Below, piece after piece: positions 27,001-36,000 of a stretch of 64,000 nucleotides of DNA. A program made the position numbers. Each line of letters begins with the position of its first letter. Within the stretch, counting starts at the first letter, position 1. The DNA lies in the NCBI RefSeq assembly GCF_902652985.1, contig NC_047016.1, positions 8,184,001 to 8,248,000 of the forward strand, read 5' to 3'. Origin of the DNA: Pecten maximus (taxonomy: Eukaryota).

Positions 27001-30000
27001 TGCAGAGAGCACAGCCTGTAAATTGGAGAATACTATCTGCTCTGGCACAATTGGTCCCAAAAATAAATATTTTCCAGTTTCCCAAGTCCATTCAATTATT
27101 TTTAAGAAATTCATGTTTACTGCAAAAGTTCTGGCAATCAAACTTTATTTTCCTATTAGGTTTAAAATTGTCTCTTTCATACATCCATGCTATCGCCATT
27201 CTGTGACAGTTCATTTCCATTGTGATTCTCAGAAGAGCTTGCGGTGAGTGTTGATGATGAGGTTGAAAGGGGAGTTGATACAGACACCTCAGATGTTACA
27301 ATAGATTCGGGTGTTGTGGCAGCAGCACTACTTGTGGTCTGTCTTGGACTGGTTGTGGGGACACGTCGGTTGTGGATACTAGTAAGGTCTACCTTCCCCT
27401 GTAAGTGCTGAAGCAACAGTGGTCCATAGGCTACCTTCTTTTCCTCTTTGGTTTCATCTGACCAAGGAGAAGGAGATGATGATGAAGATGCAGATGACAT
27501 ATTCGAGGAAGACTGCTGTTGATCAAGCTGGATTTTGAGGTCAGAGTCTATTAGATGTTTAGAAGGCATCAGGTTCTGTAAAGAATCCTGTGTATAGGAC
27601 GACATTGGATTATCATCAGGCTCTGATCCTGAGAAAATGGACTCCGGAAGTTCTGGGTTTTTGGAAAGGAGATGTTGGGCCATTGCATCCCTGGCTTGCA
27701 AGGCGTCAAGGTGGGGAAGCAATATGTCCTTGGGCAACAACTCTGCCTCGTCAAGGTCAAGTTCATCATCAGTTTCCTACAACATACAAAATAAGTTTAG
27801 AATTATTAAGGTAGTTTTACACTAAATAAGATTTTCACATTACATGAAATTCAACTAGTATAATGATAGGCCAGCAAATGTGCTGAAACGGTTGACAGGT
27901 CCAAATGTAATAAATACCATTTTCAAAACAATGCACAATAATATTGTCAGTGATTGACAGCTATTTACATAAATGCAACAAAAAGCAGTTTCGAGCATTA
28001 TTTTTAATTTATTACAATAAGAAACTGTCACTTTCAAGCCTATCAATATGGACAAATCATGCAAATCTTCAGCAATGTTTTAGTAGATGCTTTACCTCTG
28101 GTTTGAGAGGAAACCTGGTCTCCATTTCCTTAAGTGAAGTGTGGAGTGGACAGCGTGCATTATCCTCTAGGGTGACCACAGGCTGACCACACCGTCCTCC
28201 TCCAAACTGACAAGGTCGGTACAACACCTGATACTGGTCAGTTAGAATGTCTAGGGTGATGTCAAGGTTAGCTAATGGTTATATATAGATATTTTTCTAG
28301 TGACTTTAGAAACCAGTGTATAGTCTGTATCTAAGCAATTGAAATATGAAGCAAAATTGTGGTAATATATATTGATATCAACTGTGTTGAATTTTAATAA
28401 AGCTACATGTATATGACATTTCTATTTGCAAAGAAAAGTTTGTCAAATGTATTCATATTTTCAGAGAGTTATTTAGATAATAGACTAGAAGAAAATATAA
28501 CTGAAATTCATAAAATTAATATGTTTGAGAACATACATAAGGAGCTTAATGCAAAAATTAAGATATCAAAGTCCAAATCATGTAAAAATTAGACTCCCTA
28601 ATACTTTTCATGCAAAATATCAGTAGTCTCTCAATACACACAAACTCTACAAATCTTCTTTAATATCTAACTTGTACACTGAGAGATAACAGCTAACAGT
28701 TTCTGTCCCTAGCCACTTAAAGGCAGAAGCATGAAAAAATCAAAGAAAGCTAATAACTTCAATTATCCTCTTCTCAATCTAATGCAAGTCTTGAAGATGT
28801 TTATGAATCGAAATAAATTGACTTGGTGGTCAAAAAGGAACTTAAGAGATATTCTGTATATAAAAAAGGATACGTTGCGAGCAATACTTGGACAGTGGAA
28901 GGGCTCTGTGTGAACACTTGTTGCCATCTTCTACATATACACACTTGGGGTAGGATGGTGGTCTGTAATTGGCCCCTTCTGACACAGCGATCCTCCTCTG
29001 TTTGGACTGACGATGTAGTAATGCCTCCTGTAATAGAAATGGGTGGAAAGCTACTGAAAAAATGTTCGCAAGCAACCAATGCATGATGTTACCTAAGGAA
29101 CTGAAGGCAATGACATAGACGGTCTGTTGCTTCTTCAAGACACCATTGTATTGTTAGCAGATTTGGTGCAGCGTCTCATCTGTCTGGTATATTTTTTTCA
29201 ATTTAAATGACTACTTCTCATTAACCAAAATGCTAAGAGTCGTGACATTTGGCCGATAGGTTTCCGGGATGAAAGTTTTGCCAAGAAATATGACCTTGAC
29301 ACATATTCAAGGTCAGAGGGGTCAAATTTGTTAGAATTTTCAAACAACTTCTTCTCATAAACTAAAAGGCCTAGGAGCGTGATATTTGGCTGTTAGATTG
29401 GTGGAAGATGAATCCTGACAAAGTTGGCGAGGAAAAGAAGAATGACCTTGACCTGTATTTAAGGTAAAAGTAGTTAAAACTTTCAAATGACTTGTTCTCA
29501 AAAACCAAAGGACCTAAAATGGAGCCCACACAATTTGCAAAAAGAAATGATCTTGACTTATATTCAAGATCAAAGAAGTCAAACTTTTTAAACATTAAAA
29601 TGGATTCTCCTCACAAACCAAAAGGCCTAGAATCATGATATTTAACTGTTTTAATAACTAAGTTACTTATTCTTAAAATATAAACATGTAATATCCATTG
29701 AAATAATTCAATAATTTCAAATGATTAAACAATCTGAATACCTGAATTATTATGCAAGATGTTATTTTGTTTTATGATAATTGGTTCAAGCAATTTTTCA
29801 TTATTATTTTACACAATATATGAGTTTGCCTCAGTCTGACGTGCTGTGTCAACATTAAATTCAGGAACAAATCTAATTTCTTCATCATAGGCAACCACAT
29901 AATAGTTTTAACCAGCTATTGGCATCTTTCGAATCTTTTTGCTTTCCAACTTTCAAGGCAGACTTCCTGTCTGTTCTAGGCACCATGCTTCTGCCTATTC

Positions 30001-33000: not shown

Positions 33001-36000
33001 GAACTGAACCGTGCCATTTACACAGCCCTAAAATGTCCCACGGATTACTGTTGCAGCACTTTTCCAGAGAATAAGTCGTTTATAGCTATATAGACAAATT
33101 ACTCTGTTTAGGAATACCAGGTGAGCGATGCGATCTAATGAGTAGATGATGCTTACAATGTCTTGAATTTGAATCAGAGATGTGTTCATCTTTGTTAATA
33201 TTTTAAAATTTTGGTTAAACATTGTGTTTGTAATACAAATCTATGTGATAAAACAATGACTCGGGATACATTTTTATCATATCTTTGTTCACTTAAGTTT
33301 TAATATCAACTAGATTATTTTGTTTTTAAATTTAAACATTTAAAGATTATTGAAACAATTCAATGATTTCAAAGGATTAAACAAGATATCTGTAAATTAT
33401 TATGTAAGATGTTATTATGTTAATTGGTTCAAGCAATTTTTCATTATTATTTTACCATACAAGAGTTTGCCTCAGTCTGACGTGCTGTGTCAACATTAAA
33501 TTCAGGAACAAATCTAATTTTTTCATCATAGGCAACCACATAAGAGTTTTAACCAGCTATTGGCATCTTCCGAATCTTTTTCCTTTCTAACTTTCAAGGC
33601 AGACTTCCTGTCTGTTCTAGGCACCATTCTTGTGCCTTTTCATATCATGGCTATTATCTAATGAACTTCATAATGTTGGCTAATGTGTCAAGAGTAGAAT
33701 AGTTTAAAATGATGCTTACTTTTCCATACTCCCTTTTGGCTGATCATGAGCCCCCTGGGGTCAGCTCATGATCAGCCATTTGTAACTTTCTGAATCCCAA
33801 CCCCCTAAGGATGCCAGTTAAATAAGAGTGATATCGATCACCAAGTTCCAGAGCAGTGCAGCAATGATACACTTCCCTCATGATATATGTATCACGATAC
33901 TTGTCCCATGGTACGATACACATAAAATCAAAAGATTAATTTAAAACCATCTGTTTCAGTTGAACAGAACCCAAAATGTTTCCAGATATGTGATTTAAAT
34001 GAAGTAGGTGGTTCTTTCAATCCTTAACAGTCACTCAACGAAAGAGTTTCCGCTGTCATGCTAGTTTTTGGCAATACTAATTTCTGCACAGAAAACTGAA
34101 AATGGCTTGATCCAGAACAATGGGCATAATGTGATATGAGAAAAAAATAATCTGAACAGAACCGTGCCATTTACACAGCCCTAAAATGTCCCACGGATTA
34201 CTGTTGCAGCACTTTTCCAGAGAATTAGTCGTTTATAGCTATATAGACAAATTACTCTTAGGAATACCAGGTGAGCTAGATGAGTAGATGATGCTTACAA
34301 TGTCTTGAATTTGAATCAGAGATGTGTTCATCTTTGTTAATATTTTAAAATTTTGGTTAAACATTGTGTTTGTAATACAGATCTATGTGATAAAACAATG
34401 ACTCAGGATACATTTTTATCATATCTCAGTTCACTTTTAATAAGTTTTAATATCAACTAGATTATTTTGTTTTTAAATTTAAACATTTAAAGATTATTGA
34501 AACAATTCAATGATTTCAAAGGATTAAACAAGATATCTGTAAATTATTATGTAAGATGTTATTATGTTAATTGGTTCAAACAATTTTTCATTATTATTTT
34601 ACACTATACATGAGTCTGCCTCAGTCTGACGTGCTTTGTCAACATTAAATTCAGGAACAAATCTAATTTTTTCATCATAGGCAACCACATAAGAGTTTTA
34701 ACCAGCTATTGGCATCTTTCAAATCTTTTTGCTTTCCAACTTTCAAGGCAGACTTCCTGTCTTCATTTAGTAAACTTCATAATGTTGGCTGATGTGTCAA
34801 AAGTAGACCAGTTTAAAATGATGCTCACCTTTCCATGCCTTTTGTGGTATCTCTTGAGAGCCTTCAGTTTTGTGTATTTGTCTCTTGTTTCTGGACCTTC
34901 TTTGTAAACAGATAAACTGCCTAGAAATATACAAAGTTATTAACTAATCAAGTTTTAGGGTTTAAACAAAACTTTAAGCCATAGGCCCATCAGTATAACT
35001 GAGCAAACATACAGTAGAGATTCAATGCAGAATAATGTATAGAGAACGAATTCCTTTTGATATACAATATACAATTATATCAGATCAAACACATTCAAGC
35101 AGTTCTTAACCAATTATATTCAAAAATATATTTACCTCATGCACATAGTTCATTAATGCTTAGAGAATGTAGAAGCTGGATAGCCTTAAAACTGAAGCAG
35201 TTTTCCAGTAATATCTTTTTGCTATTTTTGTTAATTTGTTACAAGTTAGCCAACTACACAATCAACCAATGTATTTTCAGAAAATTGTTTTCCAGTAAAA
35301 CAATTGCTTTTTACCTGTTCATACTCTTATCGAACCTCGCAAAAAGGTTTCAAATGAATATAGCTACCTAGATTTTATGTGGTGGAAAAGGTGACAAGAA
35401 GTGTAATATGTCGAGCTTTAAAACCTTCTTAGTAAAAGTAAAATGGAAGTTGTTAATGTGAAAACCGACCAGAGTAATTTATGTCCCATTTATTTGTCTG
35501 TGTAATATTCAAGGATTCTTCAATTTTGTATGCGACAAAAAACATTTCTCCCAAGACTTTATCACTACATGTATGCTTTTATAAGATAGATAGCACAACC
35601 TTTTGCTACTTATCTTTAATTACACATCTTATTTATGGCTTTTCCAGAAAAATACAGCTTCCCCACCACAGGCAGTGTGCAATATAAATATTACCTAGAG
35701 ATTCTTTTTCCTGTTTGTGAGTGTGCAAGTACTTTCGTCTTTTTTCCTTCATGATGTGCTGAAGTCGTTTGAACTGGTCAATGTAGAGTGACTGTAGTCG
35801 TATGAGTTTGTCCCGCATTACCAGAGCCACCTCCTCGGCAGTGTACACACCGGCATGTCTAAAAACAAATTGAAAATATTAGAGATCTTCACTTCATTTG
35901 TCCTGACAGGCTGAAGTCACAATGTCTTAAACAATATATTAATTATATATTAGTTTCTAGACGTAGATTAAGTACGTTTAGTTTGGCTAGACTAATATAA

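What the first reader, a model, noticed from the sequence alone, without database searches (positions are those of the whole stretch)
29700..34840. snoRNA amplification by a ~1.15-kb tandem duplication that also copies the host 5' splice donor
Seen: five snoRNA copies lie in one intron (three more share another), departing from the usual vertebrate one-snoRNA-per-intron arrangement. The repeat unit begins in the last ~9 nt of the exon ending at 34829 (CATGGAAAG|GTGAGC). Three units carry TATGGAAAA|GTAAGC (minus strand at 33719, 32566, 31411), about 180 nt upstream of a snoRNA, and the fourth has decayed to GTCAGC (~30078). Inference: these donor-plus-snoRNA cassettes could create internal splicing or cleavage entry points that release each snoRNA separately, or they may be silent decoys. 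No strong paired acceptor is visible. The near-identity of units B-D implies recent expansion and probably copy-number variation.
Basis: partly seen in the sequence, partly recalled or inferred. Interest (0 to 1): 0.7.

Follow-up and report, generated by a model that had tools for sequence, protein, structure and literature searches.

The report
Tandemly amplified snoRNA in scallop KANSL2 intron
A small RNA gene that guides ribosomal RNA methylation has been copied five times in a row inside one intron of a scallop-like KANSL2 gene, and each copy drags along a probably idle duplicate of the neighbouring splice signal; this is an ordinary kind of gene amplification.

Summary
Intron 5 (34828-29028, minus strand) contains four full head-to-tail units (1109, 1153, 1155 and 1333 nt) plus a 439-nt partial fifth. 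Each carries one 69-nt box C/D snoRNA. Units B-E begin with a copy of the exon-5 tail and its 5' splice site (G at 33719, 32566, 31411, 30078).

The framing needs correcting. The host is KANSL2 of a scallop-like bivalve (91% identity to Mizuhopecten yessoensis in exon 1), not a vertebrate.

Three older, diverged paralogues share intron 2, so the window holds eight copies in all.

Units B-D are mosaics, E-like at the 5' end and A-like at the 3' end. This fits unequal crossing-over between two older copies.

The copied donors match the consensus as well as real donors of this gene (7 of 9). The evidence still leans towards passive by-products:
- the intron-2 paralogues have no copied donor;
- the oldest copy has drifted to GTCAGC while its snoRNA is intact;
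- acceptor-like sites are at about chance level.

Splicing use cannot be tested here. Intronic snoRNA clusters and tandem snoRNA amplification are already known. I rate this a new member of a known kind, of low to moderate interest.

The parts
34829..34920 (-). Exon 5 of the KANSL2-like gene. It ends ...CATGGAAAG, followed by the authentic donor GTGAGC (G at 34828).
   Evidence: tblastn of P0001 against the window; sequence read; donor matches the consensus at 8 of 9 positions
29028..34828 (-). Intron 5 (5801 nt), which holds the tandem array. The acceptor AG is at 29029-29028.
   Evidence: The junction RHGK|EALLHRQ is contiguous in the Mizuhopecten protein P0001.
28870..29027 (-). Exon 6 (3' end approximate, not determined)
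   Evidence: 85% identity HSP; a weak zf-C3Hc3H start in Pfam
33728..34836 (-). Unit A (1109 nt). It starts in the true exon tail and lacks a 40-nt segment present in units B-E.
32575..33727 (-). Unit B (1153 nt)
31420..32574 (-). Unit C (1155 nt)
30087..31419 (-). Unit D (1333 nt). It carries two private insertions, 186 nt at 30655-30840 and 25 nt at about 30288-30312.
29648..30086 (-). Partial unit E (about 439 nt): exon-tail copy, decayed donor, snoRNA and about 180 nt of 3' flank. Homology ends where a dispersed repeat begins.
   Evidence: 88% identity to unit C over 498 aligned columns
34616..34684 (-). Box C/D snoRNA copy A
   Evidence: covariance model, 98.4 bits; alignment A2
33467..33535 (-). 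Box C/D snoRNA copy B
   Evidence: 102.2 bits
32314..32382 (-). Box C/D snoRNA copy C
   Evidence: 102.2 bits
31159..31227 (-). Box C/D snoRNA copy D
   Evidence: 102.2 bits
29826..29894 (-). Box C/D snoRNA copy E
   Evidence: 101.5 bits
38707..38774 (-). Older paralogue i2a in intron 2, 92 nt downstream of the exon-2 donor. Best sub-threshold Rfam match is snoZ122.
   Evidence: 78.1 bits; snoZ122 31.6 bits against a gathering score of 38
37029..37097 (-). Older paralogue i2b in intron 2. Its 3' flank is still alignable to that of the tandem copies.
   Evidence: 89.6 bits
36684..36753 (-). Older paralogue i2c in intron 2
   Evidence: 86 bits
33714..33722 (-). Copied donor AAA|GTAAGC (unit B)
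   Evidence: 7 of 9 consensus positions
32561..32569 (-). Copied donor AAA|GTAAGC (unit C)
31406..31414 (-). Copied donor AAA|GTAAGC (unit D)
30073..30081 (-). Decayed donor copy AAA|GTCAGC (unit E)
   Evidence: scores below 7 of 9
33737..33778 (.). Perfect 15-bp hairpin with a 12-nt loop at the A/B junction, 18 nt upstream of the copied donor
32584..32625 (.). The same hairpin at the B/C junction
   Evidence: RNA fold centroid -30.8 kcal/mol, z = -5.2, 0 of 200 shuffles fold as well
31429..31470 (.). The same hairpin at the C/D junction
30125..30139 (.). The only intact hairpin arm at the D/E junction; the second arm is absent
36358..38865 (-). Intron 2, which holds the three older paralogues and an inserted element with terminal inverted repeats

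Best explanation
The window comes from a scallop-like bivalve, and the minus-strand gene is its KANSL2 orthologue.

A 69-nt box C/D snoRNA family lives in two of its introns. Three old, diverged copies sit in intron 2 and five sit in intron 5.

The intron-5 copies arose by DNA-level tandem duplication. An older pair of copies existed first: A, next to exon 5, and E, about 1.15 kb downstream. Unequal crossing-over between them produced the inner units B-D, which are E-like at the 5' end and A-like at the 3' end.

The duplicated segment happened to start 8-20 nt inside exon 5. Every extra unit therefore begins with a copy of the exon tail and the 5' splice site. I infer that these copies are passive by-products and are not needed to release the snoRNAs.

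The inferred processing route is that of known intronic snoRNA clusters. A snoRNP assembles on each C/D motif of the pre-mRNA or the excised intron. Endonucleolytic cuts in the spacers and exonucleolytic trimming then free the 69-nt RNAs. Molecules that are not cut could persist as snoRNA-ended long RNAs.

The guide upstream of box D is the same as the conserved guide of Rfam family snoZ122. From memory, it is complementary to the conserved large-subunit rRNA stretch methylated under U18 guidance.

Shown: the anatomy, the paralogy, the mosaic structure and the host gene. Inferred: expression, the rRNA target, the processing route and the idleness of the donors.
For: Host and taxon
- The exon-1 peptide finds 14 proteins at E<=0.001 among 20 candidates. 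The best is KAT8 regulatory NSL complex subunit 2-like of Mizuhopecten yessoensis, at 91% identity. The other named hits are mostly bivalves, and a fish hit is at 58%.
- tblastn of that protein gives 8 collinear exon matches at 85-96% identity, with the exon 5/6 junction contiguous.
- Pfam zf-C3Hc3H is found in exon 1 (E = 3e-16) and exon 7 (E = 1e-6).

snoRNA
- All 8 copies carry a C box (A/G)UGAUGA, D' CUGA, D CUGA and a 5-6 bp terminal stem.
- 46 of 69 positions are invariant. These are concentrated in the boxes, in AGAUUUG upstream of D', and in CAGCACGUCAG upstream of D.
- Among the intron-2 copies and between them and the tandem copies, flank alignments did not clearly beat shuffles (12 to 291 of 300 shuffles scored as well). 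The exception is the i2b 3' flank against units C and E (0 of 300; against A, 19 of 300). The RNA body has therefore been kept while the flanks decayed.
- The covariance model finds exactly these 8 copies.

Duplication
- Mosaic test: in the 5' third of the unit, A is the odd one at 14 sites and E at 2. In the middle the split is 4 to 4. In the 3' third it is 0 to 12. Fisher p = 6e-6.

Donors as by-product
- No intron-2 upstream flank matches any donor region above shuffles. The closest approaches were i2b against e2 (15 of 300) and e4 (17 of 300), and i2c against e2 gave 284 of 300. The i2a match to e2 is the authentic donor itself. The short i2a match to the e4 donor region (score 24, 0 of 300 shuffles) I did not inspect.
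- The donor position +3 is G in A, A in B-D and C in E, which means two changes at one site.
- Unit E has lost the GTRAG consensus, yet its snoRNA differs from unit C at 1 of 69 positions.
- Acceptor-like YAG sites with at least 12 of 18 pyrimidines number 14 in 5.8 kb. That is about what I estimate by hand for this base composition.

Precedent
- Intronic snoRNA gene clusters in rice and Drosophila (PMC2780460, passage).
- Tandem duplication of snoRNA genes within host genes of chicken, zebrafish and Xenopus (PMC2653536, passage).
Against: - The three copied donors (7 of 9 consensus positions) score as well as the real donors of exons 2 and 3 (7 of 9) and better than that of exon 4 (6 of 9). 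Together with one site at 29446, they are the only intronic sites reaching 7 of 9. They could well bind U1 and be used.
- Their sequence is unpaired in the predicted fold next to a very stable hairpin.
- Units B-D are too young for conservation to say anything about selection on the donors.
- There are no RNA data. Expression of any copy, the processing route and the rRNA target were not tested, and no rRNA sequence was available to the tools.
- Rfam places the snoRNA in no family at gathering score: 0 of 4227 families matched.
- The lower divergence of the snoRNA body relative to its flanks between A and E is only a trend (3 of 69 against 33 of 285, p = 0.08).
- How the first A...E pair arose, and where the ~710-nt spacer came from, is unresolved.
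Confidence: 0.68

Rival explanations
1. The copied donors are used. Paired with weak internal acceptors or with the exon-6 acceptor, they split the long intron so that each snoRNA lies in its own excised piece. The cost is KANSL2 isoforms carrying premature stop codons, which nonsense-mediated decay would remove.
For: - The donor copies match the consensus at 7 of 9 positions, equal to the real donors of exons 2 and 3, and are almost the only strong donor-like sites in the intron.
- Acceptor-like CTTAG sites lie 120-122 nt upstream of the donor copies of units C, D and E, with the first base after the AG at 32687, 31532 and 30201.
- Human host genes with several snoRNAs, sometimes in one intron, are extensively alternatively spliced into NMD substrates (PMC4233238, passage).
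- Read by eye, reading through the exon-5 donor hits a stop after about 21 codons. Such isoforms would be NMD targets.
Against: - The intron-2 paralogues manage without copied donors.
- The unit E donor has drifted to GTCAGC.
- Acceptor-like sites are at roughly the chance level and none is strong. The candidate acceptor is absent from unit A, which has CTTGG.
- The sequence upstream of each donor copy is purine-rich, so there is no recursive-splice-site architecture.
- The annotated Mizuhopecten protein joins exon 5 directly to exon 6.
Confidence: 0.12
2. The array is processed mainly through the spacers rather than the donors. Either the perfect 15-bp hairpin at each B-D junction serves as an RNase III-type entry site, or there is no internal cleavage and the intron yields snoRNA-ended long RNAs of about 1.2-4.9 kb.
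For: - The hairpin is present at 3 of 4 unit junctions. Its centroid fold is -30.8 kcal/mol, z = -5.2, and 0 of 200 shuffles fold as well.
- Hairpins recruit RNase III to mature co-hosted snoRNAs in fission yeast, and the authors suggest conservation in animals and plants (PMC12508059, abstract).
- Two snoRNAs in one intron give sno-lncRNAs (PMC11028025 and PMC4233238, passages).
Against: - The hairpin is missing at the older D/E junction and near the intron-2 copies, so it is young and not a family feature.
- From memory, a 15-bp stem is short for animal RNase III enzymes.
- There are no RNA data.
Confidence: 0.15
3. The inner units are an assembly artefact, an over-expanded repeat, and the true genome has one or two units.
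For: B and C are 99.2-99.7% identical. Such arrays are hard to assemble, and no reads were available to check.
Against: - Every unit has private differences. B and C differ at 5 aligned positions plus one 2-nt indel. D has private 186-nt and 25-nt insertions. A lacks a 40-nt segment.
- The mosaic pattern is what recombination predicts.
Confidence: 0.04
4. Most of the tandem copies are inert passengers. Only one or two of the eight copies make stable snoRNA, and the amplification is neutral copy-number drift.
For: - B-D are too young to show selection.
- From memory of work on mammalian intronic C/D snoRNAs, efficient maturation favours a position about 70 nt upstream of the 3' splice site. The five copies here lie about 800-5600 nt from the acceptor.
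- In the tandem copies, 2 of the 3 positions next to D' do not pair with the target inferred from copy i2a.
Against: - All boxes, the terminal stem and the D guide are intact in all 8 copies.
- A and E have stayed more similar in the RNA body than in the flanks, though only as a trend.
Confidence: 0.1

Closest known systems
Intronic snoRNA gene clusters (rice, Drosophila)
   Same: Several snoRNA genes lie in the sense orientation within a single host-gene intron and depend on host transcription (PMC2780460, passage; category also described in PMC11028025, passage).
   Different: Here all members are paralogues of one snoRNA, and the youngest were made by a kilobase-scale tandem duplication. 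The spacers are about 1.1 kb, which from memory is much longer than the compact plant and fly clusters. The taxon is a bivalve, for which my searches found no description.
Mammalian SNORD116/SNORD115 tandem arrays and their sno-lncRNAs
   Same: The repeated unit carries splice signals together with a C/D snoRNA. Two snoRNAs left in one intron yield snoRNA-ended long RNAs (Yin et al. 2012, as cited in PMC4233238 and PMC11028025, passages; not read itself).
   Different: From memory, each mammalian unit has complete exons with both an acceptor and a donor, so there is one snoRNA per intron. [quoted passage not shown]
   Same: snoRNA paralogues multiply within one host gene by tandem duplication and by movement between introns (PMC2653536, passage). 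Here the intron-5 family shares its 3' flank with intron-2 copy i2b.
   Different: In that description the copies sit in separate introns. Here they share introns.
U18/SNORD18 and Rfam snoZ122 (guide specificity)
   Same: The D-box guide GCACGUCAG(N)CUGA equals the conserved guide of snoZ122 over 14 nt in copy i2a (alignments). From memory, its complement lies in the conserved LSU rRNA stretch methylated under U18 guidance.
   Different: - The snoZ122 score is 31.6 bits, below the gathering score of 38, and SNORD18 does not appear even at E<=10.
- U18 carries its guide at D' in chicken and Neurospora (tables), whereas here it is at D.
- In chicken, U18 sits in RPL4 introns, not in KANSL2.
Alternative splicing coupled to NMD in snoRNA host genes
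   Same: This is the known way by which internal splice sites decide which intronic snoRNAs are released (PMC4233238, passage).
   Different: No evidence here that the copied donors are spliced.

Membership tests
Box C/D snoRNA | C box RUGAUGA near the 5' end and D box CUGA near the 3' end | tested here: met
   AUGAUGA or GUGAUGA, and CUGA, are invariant in 8 of 8 copies
Box C/D snoRNA | Short terminal stem bringing the C and D boxes together | tested here: met
   UUGCCU/AGGCAA: 5 pairs are invariant in 8 of 8 copies, and the sixth is UA in 6, UG in 1 and AA in 1. No covariation is available.
Box C/D snoRNA | Internal D' and C' boxes | tested here: inconclusive
   D' CUGA is invariant. C' is degenerate: UGUUGAC, GGUUGAC, UGAAGAC or UGUGGAU.
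Box C/D snoRNA | Antisense element of at least 10 nt ending next to D or D', complementary to rRNA or snRNA | not testable with these tools
   The conserved elements are present and equal the snoZ122 guide. No rRNA sequence of this or any eukaryote was available, so the target is recalled rather than tested.
Box C/D snoRNA | Stable ~70-nt RNA bound by fibrillarin-type snoRNP proteins | not testable with these tools
   No RNA data
Rfam snoZ122 (RF00343) | Score at or above the gathering threshold of 38 bits | tested here: not met
   31.6 bits for copy i2a only. The tandem copies do not match this model at E<=10.
Rfam SNORD18 (U18) | Match to the family model; guide at D' | tested here: not met
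   Absent from the lists at E<=10 in 25 kb and in 2.1 kb. The guide here is at D, whereas it is at D' (5') in the chicken and Neurospora tables.
Tandem segmental duplication | Head-to-tail units in register with a recurrent novel junction | tested here: met
   Spacings 1149-1333 nt. The same junction, spacer end with hairpin followed by the exon-tail copy, occurs in B, C, D and, degraded, in E.
Functional 5' splice site | Consensus MAG|GTRAGT | tested here: met
   AAA|GTAAGC matches 7 of 9 positions in B-D. Unit E falls below 7 of 9. The consensus itself is recalled.
Functional 5' splice site | Used in splicing (junction or lariat reads) | not testable with these tools
   No transcript data
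Recursive splice site | A 3' splice site (pyrimidine tract plus AG) abutting a regenerated 5' splice site | tested here: not met
   The sequence upstream of each donor copy is purine-rich (AAAAGGGAGUAUGGAAAA).
KANSL2 (host gene) | Two zf-C3Hc3H domains and collinear similarity to annotated KANSL2 | tested here: met
   Pfam PF13891 in exon 1 (59.8 bits) and exon 7 (29.1 bits), with a sub-threshold start in exon 6. Eight collinear tblastn matches at 85-96% identity.

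The most novel reading that the evidence does not exclude
The array may be a snapshot of how SNORD116-like repeated host units are born. Under this reading, a duplication that copied a donor along with the snoRNA lets weak acceptors be recruited. The CTTAG sites 120 nt upstream of the donor copies of units C, D and E are candidates. Each snoRNA would then acquire its own intron, separated by roughly 120-nt poison exons. 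A conserved protein-coding gene would in this way gain a non-coding, NMD-cleared 'snoRNA-only' output. The young perfect hairpin beside each donor would modulate that choice.
Probability: 0.08. Interest if true: 0.6.

Novelty: new member of a known kind. Interest (0 to 1): 0.3.

Why it matters
The main value is as a correction. The locus is molluscan rather than vertebrate, and the splice-donor copies follow from where a duplication breakpoint fell.

It also gives a clean, datable example of snoRNA gene amplification by unequal crossing-over inside an intron of a conserved protein-coding host. My literature searches turned up no description of snoRNA gene organisation in this phylum.

If transcript data showed that the copied donors are used, the locus would show how repeated exon-intron-snoRNA host units can begin.

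Tried and rejected
- **Rfam assignment.** Zero of 4227 families matched at gathering score in the whole window. The E-value mode gave only sub-threshold, mutually inconsistent C/D families.
- **Tandem Repeats Finder** found nothing because the period exceeds 500.
- **Copied donors in intron 2.** By eye, the upstream flank of i2c seemed to resemble the exon-2 donor region. A local alignment against shuffles rejected this (score 15, with 284 of 300 shuffles as good). The best donor matches of i2b were borderline and I did not count them as homology: e2 at 15 of 300 and e4 at 17 of 300. The same call gave a short i2a match to the exon-4 donor region (score 24, 0 of 300 shuffles) that I did not follow up.
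- **Spacer as a dispersed element.** blastn of unit C against the window found no copy outside the array.
- **A second RNA gene or a protein in the spacer.** There were no Rfam matches outside the snoRNA positions within the units, and the 63-aa repeat ORF has no Pfam hit.
- **Structural covariation.** Zero of 20 predicted pairs show compensatory change. The snoRNA with 15-nt flanks folds no better than shuffles (z = +0.57), which is not unexpected for a C/D RNA.
- **Literature on the snoRNA itself.** 'Z122' plus 'snoRNA' gave 0 papers. The guide 9-mer plus 'snoRNA' gave 0 papers.
- **PMC4233243** was searched for 'same intron' and similar terms and gave 0 passages.
- **PMC13736004** gave nothing on tandem copies.
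- **Helitron-type origin.** I considered this by eye because of the subterminal hairpin. I dropped it because no terminal signature was visible. It was not formally tested.

Full report
**1. What is there**

Read on the minus strand, the stretch 34920-29027 runs from one coding exon, through a 5801-nt intron, to the next exon.

The repeat finder shows five in-register copies with start-to-start spacings of 1333, 1155, 1153 and 1149 nt. Tandem Repeats Finder is blind to periods above 500 and found nothing.

A motif scan puts ATGGAAAG|GTGAGC at the exon end, with the G at 34828. It puts ATGGAAAA|GTAAGC with G at 33719, 32566 and 31411, and ATGGAAAA|GTCAGC with G at 30078.

A MAFFT alignment of the units shows homology with the true exon for its last 8 nt. 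It is plausible for about 17-20 nt (CCACAAAAGGCATGGAAAG against CCAAAAGGGAGTATGGAAAA).

The array consists of four complete units and one partial unit:
- A: 1109 nt
- B: 1153 nt
- C: 1155 nt
- D: 1333 nt, with private insertions of 186 and 25 nt
- E: about 439 nt, partial

Homology of unit E stops near 29648, where a dispersed repeat begins.

Each unit is best described as U + M. U is about 440 nt and holds the exon-tail copy, the donor, 144-184 nt of spacer, the snoRNA and its 3' flank. M is about 710 nt of spacer. The array as a whole is (U M) x 4 followed by U.

**2. Host gene and organism**

The exon-1 peptide has a Pfam zf-C3Hc3H domain (E = 3e-16), and a second copy of the domain lies in exon 7.

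I searched the protein collection with exon 1 alone, looking among longer proteins. It found 14 proteins at E<=0.001 among 20 candidates. The best is 'KAT8 regulatory NSL complex subunit 2-like isoform X2' of the scallop Mizuhopecten yessoensis, at 91% identity. Other named hits are:
- bivalves: Sinanodonta, Potamilus, Mya
- a gastropod
- a crinoid
- a spider
- a fish, at 58% identity

tblastn of that scallop protein against the window gives eight collinear matches at 85-96% identity. The sequence RHGK|EALLHRQ is contiguous across the exon 5/6 junction.

The window is therefore from a scallop-like bivalve, and I do not take it for human. The gene model was checked exon by exon.

Exon coordinates on the minus strand:

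| Exon | Coordinates |
|---|---|
| 1 | ends at 39610 |
| 2 | 39038-38866 |
| 3 | 36357-36243 |
| 4 | 35858-35695 |
| 5 | 34920-34829 |
| 6 | from 29027 |
| 7 | about 28248-28096 |
| 8 | 27776-27180 |

**3. The snoRNA**

Rfam gives no match at gathering score anywhere in the window: 0 of 4227 families.

In E-value mode only weak C/D families appear:
- snoZ122 at 31.6 bits, against a gathering score of 38, for the copy at 38707-38774
- SNORD24 at about 27 bits, against 41, for the tandem copies
- SNORD18 is absent even at E<=10

The anatomy is nonetheless that of a box C/D snoRNA. All eight copies have (A/G)UGAUGA, an internal CUGA, a terminal CUGA and a UUGCCU/AGGCAA stem. Forty-six of 69 positions are invariant.

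A covariance model built from the eight copies finds exactly those eight (78-102 bits). The next best match scores 13 bits.

An element with 37-nt terminal inverted repeats is inserted between the first and second of them.

These three copies are 69-86% identical to the tandem copies within the RNA. Their flanks no longer align clearly above shuffles. The exception is the 3' flank of i2b, which still matches the 3' flank of units C and E (0 of 300 shuffles; against A, 19 of 300). Preservation of the boxes and of two antisense elements while the flanks decayed is the best available evidence that the family is functional. Covariation is not available: 0 of 20 predicted pairs show it.

**4. The guides**

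The element upstream of box D is CAGCACGUCAG, followed by one variable nucleotide. It is invariant in all eight copies.

In copy i2a it equals the conserved guide of the snoZ122 consensus over 14 nt (alignments). The complement of that snoZ122 guide continues with AAAU. That is also what the D' element of i2a (AGAUUUGCAC, complement GUGCAAAUCU) would pair with.

The two antisense elements of i2a therefore point at two stretches that overlap by 4 nt on one continuous target. The seven other copies keep AGAUUUG but have changed the three positions next to D'.

From memory, and not from any call, the D-guide complement lies in the conserved large-subunit rRNA stretch whose A is methylated under U18 guidance. 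No rRNA sequence was available to test this.

In the chicken and Neurospora tables, U18 has its guide at the 5' (D') element. In chicken it lies in RPL4 introns. This RNA would thus work like U18 and Z122 at most. It cannot be filed as a member of either family.

**5. How the array arose**

Pairwise identities:

| Comparison | U part | M part |
|---|---|---|
| B-C | 99.2% | 99.7% |
| D against B/C | 98.7-99.5% | 97.9% |
| A against B-D | about 93% | 97.1% |
| E against B-D | 93.4% | not applicable |
| A-E | 89.8% | not applicable |

I took the sites where A and E differ and asked which of the two the B-D majority sides with. In the 5' third of U, A is the odd one at 14 sites and E at 2. In the middle third the split is 4 to 4. 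In the 3' third it is 0 to 12 (Fisher p = 6e-6).

Units B-D also share with E a 40-nt segment that A lacks.

The inner units are therefore E-like at the 5' end and A-like at the 3' end. This is the product expected when the downstream copy E on one chromatid pairs with the upstream copy A on the other and the two recombine. Further rounds of the same process would add units.

How the older A...E pair and the spacer M arose remains open. M has no other copy in the window.

Private substitutions and insertions in every unit argue against an assembly artefact. Only long reads can settle the copy number.

**6. The copied donors**

Measured against the recalled consensus MAG|GTRAGT:
- The authentic donor matches 8 of 9 positions.
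- The three copies AAA|GTAAGC match 7 of 9.
- The real donors of exons 2 and 3 match 7 of 9, and that of exon 4 matches 6 of 9.
- Within 34860-29000, only one further site reaches 7 of 9, AAG|GTCATT at 29446.

The copies are thus credible U1 binding sites, and the functional idea cannot be dismissed on sequence alone.

Four observations argue against a required role:
- The intron-2 paralogues have no copied donor.
- Position +3 shows three different bases in A, B-D and E. The oldest extra unit now has GTCAGC, while its snoRNA differs from unit C at 1 of 69 positions.
- Acceptor-like sites (YAG with at least 12 of 18 upstream pyrimidines and no nearby AG) number 14 in the intron. A hand estimate for this base composition gives about the same number. 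None is strong.
- The sequence upstream of each donor copy is purine-rich, so these are not recursive splice sites.

If a donor copy were used with the exon-6 acceptor, the mRNA would retain intron sequence with a stop after about 21 codons (read by eye). The same would follow from pairing with the weak CTTAG sites 120-122 nt upstream of the donor copies of units C, D and E. That is the NMD-coupled pattern described for human snoRNA hosts (PMC4233238, passage).

**7. The hairpin**

A perfect 15-bp inverted repeat with a 12-nt loop lies directly upstream of each donor copy in B, C and D. Its centroid fold is -30.8 kcal/mol, with z = -5.2 and 0 of 200 shuffles folding as well.

At the older D/E junction only one arm exists, and the other side reads differently. 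The palindrome was therefore created in the ancestor of B-D, possibly by a template switch (inference).

RNase III cleavage at hairpins matures co-hosted snoRNAs in fission yeast (PMC12508059, abstract). I list that as a rival route of low weight, because the hairpin is young and absent from the other copies.

**8. Comparison with what is known**

- A recent review states that animal hosts follow 'predominantly' one snoRNA per intron, and it names intronic clusters as a category (PMC11028025, passages).
- Tandem duplication and intragenic transposition of snoRNAs in host genes is described for chicken, zebrafish and Xenopus (PMC2653536, passage).
- Zebrafish kansl2 is treated as a snoRNA host gene (bioRxiv 10.1101/487496, passages). 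The snoRNA is not named there.
- When two snoRNAs stay in one intron, snoRNA-ended long RNAs can form.

I found no paper on snoRNA gene organisation in molluscs. The searches were:
- 'snoRNA', 'tandem duplication', 'intron', 'mollusc'. 491 papers held at least 3 terms, 12 were listed, and none was on this.
- 'snoRNA', 'scallop', 'host gene'. 12 of 3,377 were listed, and none was on this.
- 'kansl2', 'snoRNA'. 10 papers.

Subscription journals and supplements were not covered.

**9. What stayed unchecked**

- No eukaryotic genome or read collection was open. Conservation of the array in other scallops, copy-number variation, expression of any copy, use of any donor and the rRNA target are all untested.
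- The acceptor chance level is a hand estimate, not a shuffle.
- The donor consensus, the U18 target, the optimal snoRNA-to-acceptor distance and the structure of the SNORD116 units are recalled.

**10. Verdict**

The tandem amplification is real in this sequence and recent. The donor copies are most likely passengers.

This is a new member of a known kind. Interest is 0.3.

Noticed in passing
window 37438-38606 (intron 2): An element of about 1.17 kb bounded by 37-nt inverted repeats (81% complementary) sits between snoRNA copies i2a and i2b. It looks like a non-autonomous DNA transposon. Its 121-aa ORF has no Pfam hit.
   Followed up: partly
window 29191-29650, with relatives at 6342-7118: A dispersed repeat of about 120-190 nt occurs in several copies directly after the truncated unit E and again about 23 kb away, at 67-83% identity. 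Unit E homology ends where it begins.
   Followed up: partly
window 30655-30840 (unit D): A private 186-nt insertion. Its last ~30 nt recur at 40868-40901 and 6262-6291 at 88-90% identity, which suggests a fragment of a mobile element.
   Followed up: no
window 31429-31470, 32584-32625, 33737-33778 compared with 30100-30139: The perfect palindrome at the B-D junctions is replaced in unit E by unrelated bases on one side. This is as if a short template switch had copied the opposite strand in the ancestor of B-D.
   Followed up: partly
window 38707-38774: The complements of the two antisense elements of copy i2a overlap by 4 nt, so they tile one continuous ~18-nt target. Its first 14 nt equal the complement of the single guide of Rfam snoZ122. 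This may reflect extra base-pairing or a second methylation site.
   Followed up: partly
units B-E, alignment columns 129-168 (e.g. window ~32490-32529): A 40-nt segment containing a small GGCAC...GUGCC hairpin is present between donor copy and snoRNA in units B-E but absent from unit A. It is either a deletion in A or a gain in the E lineage.
   Followed up: no
each unit, e.g. window ~32556-32566 and ~31996-32006: The 11-mer GTAAGCATCAT occurs twice per unit, once at the donor copy and once inside the spacer (cattGTAAGCATCATctac). I saw this by eye. The second site matches the donor consensus at only 6 of 9 positions.
   Followed up: no
window ~19554-20645: Stop-free translations on the minus strand show a short repeated peptide pattern, which indicates a minisatellite-like tandem repeat.
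   Followed up: no
window 45895-46107 (+): An ORF with a Cyclin_N match just under the Pfam cut-off (22.6 against 23 bits, E = 9e-5). A cyclin-type gene probably lies on the plus strand upstream of KANSL2.
   Followed up: no
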